A DNA stretch of 64,000 bases from Promethearchaeota archaeon. Lineage in GTDB: Archaea; Asgardarchaeota; Lokiarchaeia; Sigyniarchaeales; SOKP01. A program made the position numbers and the translations under genes. Below the pieces are notes generated by a model. It was not told the origin of the DNA. It was given only the letters and a program-made list of their open reading frames with translations, and did no database searches. The DNA is taken from positions 96,001-160,000 of the forward strand of contig JAEOTA010000054.1 of NCBI GenBank assembly GCA_016840085.1, given 5' to 3'. Below, piece by piece: positions 49,966 to 59,304 of this stretch. How positions within the stretch are numbered: position 1 is the first letter of the stretch; every line of letters begins with the position of its first letter.

Positions 49966-51298
49966 TCAAAAGATATTATTATCTAAGACTATCGTTTCCT
50001 TCCTATCCGGACCAATAGATATCATAGCTATATCTACTTGAAGCTCTTCTCTGATTGCTTGAAGGTATATTTTCATGGTGTCTGGTAAAGTGTCATATCC
50101 TTTTTCTGAAATTTCTAACCACTTATCTCTACTCCTTTCTTCCCATCCTTCAAATGATTTATAAATTGGTTGGCATTTTTCTATAATCTCATGCTGAATA
50201 GGCCAACTTTCGAGTGTTTCTCCATTTAGTTCATATGCAATACACATCTTAATGGTGGGTATTCCTTGCAGAGCATCCAATAAAGTTATGATAATCTTAT
50301 CAATTCCATTTATCATTATCCCATATTTAATATTAAAGAGATCAATCCATCCGACTCTGCGTGGTCTTCCTGTTACCGTACCGTATTCATGACCTTGTTC
50401 TCTAATTTTTTCAGCAGTATCATTAAATAATTCAGTTGGGAATTTACCCTCTCCCACTCTAGAAGTGTATGCTTTAATTATACCAACTACTTTATTAATT
50501 TTTTTAGGAGGTATTCCTGTTCCAGCAGAAATTCCAAGGGCATTAGCATTTGAAGAGGTACCAAATGGGTAACAACCATGATCTATACATAAGAGATTGC
50601 CTTGAGCTCCCTCGAAAACAACTCTTTTACCGCTATCTATAGCCTTATTTAAGTAATATGCTGTATCGATTACATATGGTTTTAGTTGTTTACCATAAGA
50701 CTTATATTCTTCATAAATAGATTCTAAATCAACGTTCCAGCTCGGATCGTAAACCTGTATTATATCTTTCTTAATTTTATATAATTTCTCTAATTTAGGT
50801 CTTAATACGTCAGGATTGATCAGATCATAAATTCTTAATCCCCAACGAGCCGCTTTATCCGAATATGTTGGTCCAATTCCTCGTTTTGTTGTACCAGCCC
50901 TATATTCTCCCTTTGATTTTTCTTCTAAGCTATCCAACGTGCGATGGAATGGGAAAATAACGTGGGCAGTAGAGCTTAATTTCAAATTAATTTTTTTATT
51001 GAGCTTTTTTAAATTTTCAATTTCTTCAAGAAGAACTTTTGGATCGACCACACATCCATTTGCAATAACACATTCCTTTTCAAGTGGAGCACCACTGGGA
51101 ATTAACTTGAATTTGTATTTAATTCCATTTGCATTGATCGTATGGCCTGCATTATTTCCGCCATTGTATCTTACGACAACATCTGCTTTTTGGGCTAAGT
51201 AATCGACGAATTTACCTTTTCCTTCGTTTGGGGTTAGCATGCGATTTGCCTTGCTAAGCTCCCCAACTTAACCCCATAATTGCTATATTATTACTCAT
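49966..51298 (-). CDS. purA: Adenylosuccinate synthetase, split by a 31-nt intron: complement(join(49966..51227,51259..51298)), 433 aa spliced
   Basis: RYNGGNNAGHT, GTTKRGIGPTY, FEGAQG, EYGTVTGRPRRVGW. Exon 1 gives MSNNIAIMGLSWG; splicing restores WGDEGKGK. Confidence 0.93.
51228..51258 (-). other. BHB-type (relaxed HBh') micro-intron in purA mRNA, 31 nt
   Basis: GGGG-[AG^C]-UUAGCA...UGCUAA-CCCC-[AA^A]; removal joins G+AC to give the catalytic Asp codon. Confidence 0.85.
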
Positions 51299-51523: not shown

Positions 51524-52444
51524 ATGCCGCAGAAAACAATTTTATTTGATCTCGCTCATAATGAAATGCTAAATATAGAGGATGCTGAATTTTCCGACTT
51601 TCTAAGTCTTTTGAAAAGAATGGACATTAAGATAAAGAAAACTGAGAATGAGCATCTTAAAAAGAATATGTTAAGTAATGTTGATCTCTTAGTAATTGGC
51701 AATCCAATTGATGATTATTTTTCCAGTATTGAAGTTAAATATATTGTTGATTTTGTTCGAAGTGGAGGGGGATTGCTTCTTTTAAGTGAATATGGCGCGG
51801 ACTACCTTCAAAAAACTAATTTAAATGATATTTCAGGAAAATTTGGGATTCTTTTTGAAAAGAATATAATTAAAGAAAGTACTAGGGAGAATCAAAATAT
51901 TTCTAGCATATTACATATTAATAAATTTTCAAAACATCAAATCACTAAAAATCTAAGAGAAATTGTGGTAGGAGGGGCGTGCTCTCTCCTTTTAAGTAAA
52001 GATGCAAAACCAATATTTCAAATTAATAAACAATATGTGTGGTCAGAAGTTTTTAATAGCAGTACTGAACAATGGATTAAAGATGAGGAAGAGACACAAC
52101 AAATTATAGCAGCATTTACAGAATTTGGGCAAGGAAAGGTATTAGCTATTGGAGATATTGATGTATTTACAACTGATTCTAATATTGGAATTAATTCCTT
52201 GGATAATCAAAAATTTTTGCAAAATGCCATAAATTGGTTAATAGAGCCAGTAAAAGAACAAATGGTGATAAGTTTTTTACTTAATCAATTAGGTGATCTT
52301 CAGTATGAAATCAGAGAAACCAATAAAATATTAAATAACATTATTGAAACGATCACAATATTAGAAAAAAGAATAAGTTATTTAGAGAAAAACTCGAGTT
52401 TTCACAAAAAAAGTTTAAAAAATGAAAAGAATAGCGAAAAGTAA
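51524..52444 (+). CDS. GATase-like DUF4350/GldG/IFT52-type (GIFT) domain protein with C-terminal coiled coil
   Basis: ILFDLAHNE, DLLVIGNP...F...E...I.DFV.SGGGLLL, GQGKVLAIGD.D.F, N..FL.NAINWL; heptad tail. Confidence 0.7.
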   Translation: MPQKTILFDLAHNEMLNIEDAEFSDFLSLLKRMDIKIKKTENEHLKKNMLSNVDLLVIGNPIDDYFSSIEVKYIVDFVRSGGGLLLLSEYGADYLQKTNLNDISGKFGILFEKNIIKESTRENQNISSILHINKFSKHQITKNLREIVVGGACSLLLSKDAKPIFQINKQYVWSEVFNSSTEQWIKDEEETQQIIAAFTEFGQGKVLAIGDIDVFTTDSNIGINSLDNQKFLQNAINWLIEPVKEQMVISFLLNQLGDLQYEIRETNKILNNIIETITILEKRISYLEKNSSFHKKSLKNEKNSEK

Positions 52445-52446
52445 TC

Positions 52447-52980
52447 ATGGGAGAAGTCACTTATAAAATTGTCGTTTTTGGAAATGGTGGAGTAGGGAAA
52501 ACTACTCTACTTCATCGTTATATAACAGGGAAATTCTTTTTAGACACAAAAGTGACGATTGGTTTGGACATTGCGGTGAAATACCTGGAAATAGAAGGTA
52601 TTAAGATTACGCTTCAGATATGGGATTTCGGAGGTGAAGATCGGTTTAGATTCCTTTTACCTAATTATACCCGTGGTGCATTTGGAGGAATTTTCATGTA
52701 TGATACTACACGACCTCATAGTTTACGGAATATTGATGAGTGGTTAGAAATATTTAGAAGAGAACAAATTAAAAAATTTCATGCTCCATTAATATTAGTT
52801 GGAGGAAAGTCAGATCTTATAACAAGGAGATTAATTTCTGAAAAAGAAGCAAAAAAAGTAGCAAAATCCTATAAAATTTCTCATCACTTTGAATGTTCTG
52901 CTAAAACGGGTGAAAATGTAGAATTAATATTTGATACTTTAATAAGAACAATTATGAGAAAAGCAAGTCTCCTTAAATAG
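52447..52980 (+). CDS. Rab-like small GTPase
   Basis: GNGGVGKTT, TIGLDI, IWDFGGEDRF, GKSD, ECSAKTG. Confidence 0.9.
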   Translation: MGEVTYKIVVFGNGGVGKTTLLHRYITGKFFLDTKVTIGLDIAVKYLEIEGIKITLQIWDFGGEDRFRFLLPNYTRGAFGGIFMYDTTRPHSLRNIDEWLEIFRREQIKKFHAPLILVGGKSDLITRRLISEKEAKKVAKSYKISHHFECSAKTGENVELIFDTLIRTIMRKASLLK

Positions 52981-59045: not shown

Positions 59046-59304
59046 ATGGCCCGCTGTCCAGAAAGTTTTTTTGTATACACAAATTAACATGGATTGCGGA
59101 GGGTTTATGAAATACCATTCAGCTATAAAACAAGTCGTCTGCCAATCATGTGGACTTTCTTTAACGAGGCATGAATTAGATCGTTATTGGAAAAAGGTGA
59201 GGAATGAAAATATTTCGGAGGTAGATGATACGCAGCAAAAGAAAAATCGACGTAAAGAATGGCTTGAATGGTATTCTTCTTCCAAATCTGATAAAGAATA
59301 TTAA
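59046..59304 (+). CDS. Small Zn-ribbon protein split by a 31-nt intron: join(59046..59063,59095..59304), 75 aa spliced
   Basis: Spliced product MARCPECGGFMKYHSAIKQVVCQSCGLSLTRHELDRYWKKVRNENISEVDDTQQKKNRRKEWLEWYSSSKSDKEY with complete CxxC...CxxC. Unspliced frame stops at TAA 59085. Confidence 0.85.
59064..59094 (+). other. BHB-type (hBHBh') micro-intron, 31 nt
   Basis: Exon helix CUGU/GCGG (extended by CCC/GGG), central helix CCAG/AUGG (one G-A), bulges AA^A and AU^U, intron hairpin GUU..UUUGU-AUAC-ACAAA..AAC. Confidence 0.83.

What the first reader, a model, noticed from the sequence alone, without database searches (positions are those of the whole stretch)
51228..51298. purA is split at its catalytic aspartate by a 31-nt BHB-type intron
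Minus-strand mRNA: AUG AGU AAU AAU AUA GCA AUU AUG GGG UUA AGU UGG GGA G^CUUAGCAAGGCAAAUCGCAUGCUAACCCCAA^AC GAA GGA AAA GGU AAA. Unspliced it reads MSNNIAIMGLSWGA*. Spliced it reads MSNNIAIMGLSWGDEGKGK, the conserved PurA P-loop whose Asp (Asp13 in E. coli) is catalytic. Structure: central helix GGGG/CCCC, 5' bulge AGC, intron stem UUAGCA/UGCUAA, 3' bulge AAA. The outer exon-exon helix is weak, so this is a relaxed HBh' motif. The rest of the gene is intact, which argues against pseudogenisation.
Basis: partly seen in the sequence, partly recalled or inferred. Interest (0 to 1): 0.93.

Follow-up and report, generated by a model that had tools for sequence, protein, structure and literature searches.

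The report
tRNA-type intron splits Asgard purA
The only adenylosuccinate synthetase (purA) gene of this Lokiarchaeia (Asgard) archaeon, and of 29 relatives, is interrupted inside its catalytic aspartate codon by a 30-32-base intron of the kind the tRNA-splicing enzymes cut; papers I could search report this inside an archaeal coding sequence only for cbf5, and no spliced transcript has been seen yet.

Summary
Confirmed. Among deletions up to 59 nt, only one (31 nt, 51258..51228, minus strand) restores WGDEGKGK and a 433-aa PurA, and it falls at the EndA cut points AG^C and AA^A around a GGGG/CCCC helix. It is the genome's only purA. An independent read assembly is identical. A 30-32-nt insert sits at the same site in 30 of 118 purA genes of the family (4 genera) and in none of 21 outgroup genes. 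Unspliced, all 30 stop within 11 codons, yet the genes are under purifying selection (dN/dS 0.05-0.14), and the stem shows compensatory changes. Two additions: (1) the outer exon-exon helix is displaced, not missing: a 9-bp helix 27 nt into exon 2, made by synonymous codon choice and enriched in intron-bearing genes; (2) presence and absence travel with about 20-30 nt of exon flank, which points to gain and loss by short-patch recombination. Weak points: no spliced RNA seen; the catalytic EndA subunit is missing from this assembly along with its neighbours (present in nearly all relatives). Same kind as the cbf5 intron, which also splits a catalytic Asp codon. The scan noted similar introns before, in purA of other archaea and other Lokiarchaeia genes.

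The parts
51259..51298 (-). purA exon 1 (ATG at 51298; 13 codons plus the first base of the Asp14 codon)
   Evidence: matches the N-terminus of 88 intronless family genes
51266..51274 (-). 5' arm of the distal exon-exon helix (Gly-Leu-Ser codons)
   Evidence: duplex -13.5 kcal/mol, p = 0.003 against synonymous-codon shuffles
51261..51264 (-). 5' strand of the 4-bp central helix (GGGG)
51258..51260 (-). 5' splice-site bulge AG^C (predicted cut after the second base)
   Evidence: Gly codon is GGA in 30/30 intron-bearing against 33/88 intronless genes
51228..51258 (-). 31-nt intron: 6-bp basal stem (51257..51252 with 51239..51234), apical GC/GC pairs closing a 5-nt loop, then CCCC and AA; holds the in-frame TAG stop and an internal ATG (51240) used by gene callers
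51230..51233 (-). 3' strand of the central helix (CCCC)
51227..51229 (-). 3' splice-site bulge AA^A, lying at a three-way junction
51192..51200 (-). 3' arm of the distal exon-exon helix (Tyr-Leu-Ala-Gln codons)
49966..51227 (-). purA exon 2 (rest of the Asp codon, EGKGK, then open frame to the stop); spliced product 433 aa
   Evidence: an intronless relative matches solved adenylosuccinate synthetases over its full length
59064..59094 (+). second 31-nt BHB-like insert in the same window, in a Zn-ribbon gene (MARCPE|CGG); outside the finding but the same kind
   Evidence: 15 relatives read CPECGG without it, others carry 28-31-nt inserts there

Best explanation
A relaxed bulge-helix-bulge intron in the purA pre-mRNA. 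The transcript folds so that exon-1 GGGG pairs with intron CCCC, the intron forms a hairpin, and exon 1 pairs with exon 2 27 nt downstream (fold predicted; geometry and covariation shown). The (alpha-beta)2 splicing endonuclease EndA cuts after the second base of each bulge and RtcB joins the exons, re-creating the GAC codon of the catalytic Asp (inferred from established archaeal tRNA and cbf5 splicing; not observed). Without splicing, translation stops at codon 15, so PurA synthesis depends on splicing. The intron is most likely a tolerated, nearly neutral element: at an essential codon only exact removal is viable, and the conserved motif lets intron-bearing and intron-free alleles replace one another as short patches with their co-adapted exon flanks (patch pattern shown; recombination as its cause inferred).
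For: Unique rescuing deletion at the EndA register. Same site in 30/118 family genes, 0/21 outgroup, lengths 30/31/32, all stop within 11 codons unspliced; 13 further intron variants in metagenomes. Central helix 4/4 in 28 of 30. Five pairs with two-sided changes, 0/500 shuffles, slid registers 24-49% paired against 86%. dN/dS 0.05-0.14 between intron-bearing genes, like intronless pairs at 0.05-0.16. Exon-exon pairing median -11.7 against -6.0 kcal/mol; 26/30 against 11/88 beyond synonymous shuffles; of 10 independent pairs 7.6-7.8 go the same way, 0-0.4 the other. Single purA; purB, a GARS-family gene and RtcB present. EndA alpha of relatives has the Y-H-K triad and the L1 loop Lys, best match A. 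pernix EndA (PMC5829648). Intron/no-intron pairs differ at 252 flank positions against 142 expected; intron/intron 55 against 113. The cbf5 intron lies between bases 1 and 2 of its catalytic Asp codon (PMC2738675).
Against: No spliced transcript or peptide: none of 148 related proteins was an intact near-identical copy of an intron-bearing gene. The catalytic EndA alpha gene was not found in this assembly, though its neighbours, including ATP synthase A/B, are missing too. The 3' site is not a canonical 3-nt bulge: in the predicted fold two terminal A-U pairs must open. In about a third of relatives the predicted ensemble does not favour the EndA register. An apt gene is present, so adenine salvage could relax the need for PurA. 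Kin are not independent, and the trees are FastTree only.
Confidence: 0.9

Rival explanations
1. The intron is also a regulatory gate: splicing efficiency sets PurA output in response to conditions, through the competing fold or the conserved GCA-nnn-CGCA apex. This adds to the best explanation rather than replacing it.
For: In a short context exon 1 pairs with the intron's 3' arm and the EndA register drops to 0.02; it rises to 0.99 once exon 2 is present. The apical motif is near-invariant in the genus; intron identity is 24/31 where 71% of synonymous sites differ.
Against: 88 of 118 relatives lack the intron, including sisters 3-7% apart. The apex differs in the g21, g27 and G093 intron types. 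Recent patch exchange can explain the conservation.
Confidence: 0.15
2. Translational bypass, frameshift or read-through instead of RNA splicing.
For: A stop codon at the foot of a hairpin resembles hop elements; an earlier scan note proposed hopping for a phage purA.
Against: The insert splits a codon. In 28 of 30 genes the downstream frame reads Asn or Tyr at the Asp position, so a hop cannot restore Asp. Lengths cover all three phases, and there is no matching take-off/landing codon pair.
Confidence: 0.02
3. The cell makes an N-terminally truncated PurA from a start inside the insert, as public annotation has it (424 aa, MLTPN...).
For: An in-frame ATG lies at 51240; 28 of 120 homologous records have such insert-derived starts.
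Against: The product lacks the first beta strand and the essential Asp (99% conserved, PMC12884076). The ATG is not conserved, several genes have a stop in that frame, and exon 1 stays conserved with an intact frame in all 30.
Confidence: 0.02
4. Pseudogene broken by an insertion, or an assembly artefact.
For: Premature stop at codon 15; adenine salvage gene present.
Against: Independent assemblies agree; 30 genomes share the site; dN/dS 0.05-0.14 and full-length exon 2 in all complete intron-bearing loci except G084, which has a second BHB-shaped insert.
Confidence: 0.02
5. The insert is removed at the DNA level (programmed excision) or by an RNase other than EndA.
For: Intronless alleles occur in close relatives.
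Against: No terminal direct repeat: the rescuing deletion is unique. Close intronless alleles differ in their flanking codons, so they are not clean excisions. Cut points match the EndA rule in all 30.
Confidence: 0.04

Closest known systems
BHB intron of the cbf5 pre-mRNA in Desulfurococcales and Sulfolobales (Watanabe 2002; Yokobori 2009, PMC2738675)
   Same: Short relaxed-BHB intron in a coding sequence, between bases 1 and 2 of a catalytic Asp codon; patchy among relatives; (alpha-beta)2 EndA with the L1 loop in the lineage.
   Different: Different gene (purine synthesis rather than RNA modification) and phylum (Promethearchaeota/Lokiarchaeia). The 3' site lies at a three-way junction closed by a distal exon-exon helix. 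Loss and gain look like patch recombination, not the precise cDNA-mediated loss proposed for cbf5. cbf5 splicing is shown by cDNA; this is not.
Non-canonical (HBh'/hBH) archaeal tRNA introns cut by (alpha-beta)2 EndA (PMC5829648; abundant in some Asgards, PMC11291895)
   Same: 4-bp central helix, cut after the second bulge base, intron hairpin, similar length.
   Different: Host RNA is an mRNA; the exon pairing has to be built from synonymous codons.
BHB intron in the 5' UTR of Haloferax HVO_1309 (PMC7714728)
   Same: EndA-processed BHB site in an mRNA.
   Different: Lies in an untranslated region and does not break a reading frame.
IRE1-dependent XBP1/HAC1 splicing in eukaryotes (PMC13149111)
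   Same: Spliceosome-independent removal of a short intron by an endonuclease plus ligase switches the reading frame.
   Different: IRE1 cuts two stem-loops, not a BHB, and is stress-regulated; no regulation is shown here.

Membership tests
EndA-type (BHB) archaeal intron | 4-bp central helix between exon 1 and the intron's 3' end | tested here: met
   4/4 pairs here; 4/4 in 28 and 3/4 in 2 of 30
EndA-type (BHB) archaeal intron | Both cuts after the second base of a 3-nt bulge give the correct product | tested here: met
   The unique rescuing deletion is that register; same in all 30
EndA-type (BHB) archaeal intron | Intron-side helix (h') with compensatory change | tested here: met
   5 pairs with two-sided changes, 0/500 shuffles
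Canonical hBHBh' motif | Exon-exon helix directly next to the 3' bulge | tested here: not met
   Not in register in any of 30; replaced by a helix offset by one base (most of genus g1) or a distal 9-bp helix (this genome, g21, g27, g28). So relaxed, not canonical
EndA-type (BHB) archaeal intron | Genome encodes a catalytic EndA able to cut relaxed motifs | tested here: inconclusive
   Only the His-less beta subunit found in G000; alpha with triad and L1 loop in nearly all of 60 relatives; alpha's neighbours also missing from G000
EndA-type (BHB) archaeal intron | RtcB ligase encoded | tested here: met
   PF01139, E 1e-166
EndA-type (BHB) archaeal intron | Spliced RNA or excised circular intron detected | not testable with these tools
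   No RNA reads on hand; an indirect search for joined copies among proteins was negative
cbf5-type mRNA intron | Interrupts a catalytic codon of a functional protein gene | tested here: met
   Asp of GDEGKGK; dN/dS 0.05-0.14
T4 gene 60-type translational bypass | Matching take-off and landing codons; whole codons on both sides | tested here: not met
   Codon is split; Asn or Tyr at the Asp place in 28/30
Group I/II self-splicing intron or other Rfam family | Catalytic RNA core | tested here: not met
   31 nt; no Rfam match up to E = 1

The most novel reading that the evidence does not exclude
In this Lokiarchaeia family EndA/RtcB splicing of mRNAs is routine, and the tiny introns are a horizontally exchanged population: intron plus co-adapted exon flanks move as 50-70-nt patches by homologous recombination at conserved catalytic motifs (purA Asp, purA His in G084, a Zn-ribbon CxxC), like inteins but with no homing enzyme. 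This would put mobile, enzyme-spliced mRNA introns in the archaeal group close to eukaryote origins.
Probability: 0.5. Interest if true: 0.9.

Novelty: new member of a known kind. Interest (0 to 1): 0.78.

Why it matters
In the papers I could search, cbf5 is the only archaeal coding sequence with a demonstrated BHB intron (PMC7714728 says so as of 2020; five searches aimed at archaeal or Asgard mRNA introns found no report of this case). A core metabolic gene that needs tRNA-type splicing in an Asgard lineage makes mRNA splicing by EndA/RtcB directly testable with one RT-PCR or one in vitro cleavage. The many intron/no-intron sister pairs give a natural data set for how such introns are gained and lost. 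It also corrects annotation: about a quarter of the closest public PurA records (28 of 120) are called with a false, insert-derived N-terminus lacking the catalytic Asp.

Tried and rejected
De novo genome scan for BHB inserts that join two frames: recovered purA but gave no excess over decoy lengths (12 against 11 and 7), so it is uninformative. Search for spliced copies among full-length and short proteins: none found; the collection may hold no RNA data for these genomes. IQ-TREE protein tree timed out; FastTree DNA trees used instead. Pattern scan of all GTDB species: hits outside Lokiarchaeia were chance, or a GGGAG ribosome-binding site ahead of an intact purA; the pattern covered only inserts of 22-42 nt after TGGGGAG, so shorter or differently placed purA introns elsewhere were not tested. 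G080's broken purA is a deletion of about 200 nt, not an intron. No second copy of the intron sequence in the genome. tRNA-intron comparison by ARAGORN was too noisy to use. No paper in the library gave the PurA mechanism directly; the catalytic roles of Asp13 and His41 rest on established knowledge plus PMC12884076.

Full report
Observation. The minus-strand gene starting at 51298 reads MSNNIAIMGLSWGA-stop; a second frame resumes at EGKGK and runs open to 49966. Among all deletions of up to 59 nt near the start, only removal of 51258..51228 (31 nt) gives a 433-aa frame with WGDEGKGK. The ends fall after the second base of the bulges AGC and AAA flanking a GGGG/CCCC helix, the rule for the archaeal splicing endonuclease (established knowledge; PMC2738675). 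It is the only purA in the 4.7-Mb assembly. A Logan reassembly from reads is identical over 1333 nt, and a JGI contig with 47 differences has the same insert.

Source. Record titles of genomes with the same inserts place the organism in Promethearchaeota (Lokiarchaeia); one congener is the MAG Loki_b32. Two complete genomes in another family, whose sizes match cultured Lokiarchaeia (from memory), have no insert.

Distribution. Of 118 purA genes of the family with a readable start, 30 carry an insert at this exact position (18/49, 2/4, 1/7 and 9/36 in four genera) and 88 do not; none of 21 outgroup genes does. Lengths are 30, 31 or 32 nt, several sequence types occur, and every unspliced reading stops within 1-11 codons. 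Metagenome contigs add 13 more variants. A DNA tree needs at least 10 changes of state; a single gain would need 21 losses.

Structure. The central helix is fully paired in 28 of 30, mostly as GGGG/CCCU; the 5' bulge is always AG-N and the 3' bulge A-N-A. In 15 aligned 31-nt introns five stem pairs show two-sided changes, above all 500 shuffles, and slid registers pair far worse; relatedness can inflate this. In register it is absent, but intron-bearing genes build exon-exon pairing from synonymous codons in two ways: most of the genus pair the Gly-Leu-Ser codons with the first exon-2 codons, offset by one base; this genome and three other genera pair them with the Tyr-Leu-Ala-Gln codons 27 nt downstream. 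Median duplex energy is -11.7 against -6.0 kcal/mol. Against synonymous shuffles 26/30 intron-bearing and 11/88 intronless genes reach p <= 0.05 (this gene 0.003), and 7.6-7.8 of 10 phylogenetically independent pairs go the same way, median sign-test p 0.008-0.016. With that helix, the central and intron helices have probability 0.99; without it a competing fold wins. The 3' site therefore sits at a three-way junction: a relaxed motif.

Function of the gene. dN/dS between intron-bearing genes is 0.05-0.14, as between intronless ones. purB and a GARS-family gene are present, and so is apt. The split residue is the PurA Asp13 equivalent, 99% conserved and called essential in PMC12884076. Gene callers start inside the insert and produce a 424-aa protein without it; 28 of 120 homologous records are of that sort.

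Machinery. RtcB is present. The one EndA hit in this assembly has Thr in place of the catalytic His, so it is the beta subunit. Nearly all of 60 relatives have two subunits; their alpha has Tyr-His-Lys and aligns with A. pernix EndA across the L1 loop including its Lys, the loop linked to relaxed-motif cleavage and reported for Asgard (PMC5829648). Alpha is missing here, but so are its neighbours, including ATP synthase A/B, so an assembly gap is the likely cause (inference).

Gain and loss. Close intron/no-intron pairs are not clean excisions. L372 (intron) and G099a (none) differ by 3.4% in the body and not at all in the 42 nt before or 60 nt after, yet differ at 6 synonymous positions in the last 18 nt of exon 1. 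Over pairs under 16% apart, flank mismatches are 252 against 142 expected for intron/no-intron pairs, 55 against 113 for intron/intron and 73 against 119 for none/none (pairs overlap, so not independent). G018 and G099a share one intronless patch although each is nearest an intron-bearing gene; G094 carries this genome's patch on a body 24% away; L376 has an intron inside an otherwise intronless clade. The simplest reading is exchange of short patches by homologous recombination in both directions. Strain mixing in assemblies cannot be excluded case by case, but it would itself need both alleles in one population.

Not alone. A second 31-nt insert at 59064..59094 splits a Zn-ribbon CxxC and is absent from 15 relatives. 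G084 has a second BHB-shaped insert in purA right after the His of GHT. My own genome-wide scan had no power. Scan notes list further candidates in this genome and purA P-loop introns in other archaea; I did not test those.

Mechanism, with status. Shown: position, register, geometry, covariation, exon co-adaptation, purifying selection, patch pattern. Inferred: cleavage by EndA, ligation by RtcB, recombination as the cause of the patches. Not shown: any spliced RNA, any regulation. Hopping, internal start, pseudogene and artefact are each contradicted by the data above.

Comparison and verdict. It works like the cbf5 intron, down to splitting a catalytic Asp codon between bases 1 and 2, and meets every testable feature of a relaxed BHB intron except a catalytic EndA in this assembly. 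It is not a canonical hBHBh' motif. Literature searches found no report of it, with the caveat that the library lacks most subscription papers. New member of a kind with one demonstrated coding-region example; confidence 0.9; interest 0.78.

Noticed in passing
window 59064-59094 (+): Second 31-nt BHB-like insert, in a small Zn-ribbon gene; absent from 15 relatives, 28-31-nt inserts of another sequence type in several others.
   Followed up: partly
L281 (G084 purA), right after the His codon of GHT: A second 31-nt insert with BHB geometry (GGUC/GGCU, AU^U, AA^A) next to the other catalytic residue; removal restores the frame, so a two-intron purA.
   Followed up: partly
G000 assembly: ATP synthase A/B subunits, a MEMO-like gene and endA alpha, neighbours in relatives, are all missing despite 98.8% marker completeness: a sizeable assembly gap.
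   Followed up: partly
L035 (G094) purA 5' end: First 120 nt about 90% identical to this genome's, body only 75%: apparent recombination of the intron patch.
   Followed up: partly
P0145 / L377: A gene caller read through a 30-nt intron variant by assuming TGA=Trp; such introns can trigger false genetic-code calls.
   Followed up: no
L272 (G080 purA): Deletion of about 200 nt with frameshift after codon 48; pseudogene or misassembly.
   Followed up: no
window 51524-52980 (+): Upstream and divergent from purA: an IFT52/GIFT-domain gene and a Rab-like small GTPase (Pfam hits), conserved next to purA in relatives.
   Followed up: no
GenBank titles: Several MAGs titled Hodarchaeota, Thorarchaeota, Hermodarchaeota or Odinarchaeota carry the same purA loci as genomes of this Lokiarchaeia family, so those titles look mis-assigned.
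   Followed up: no
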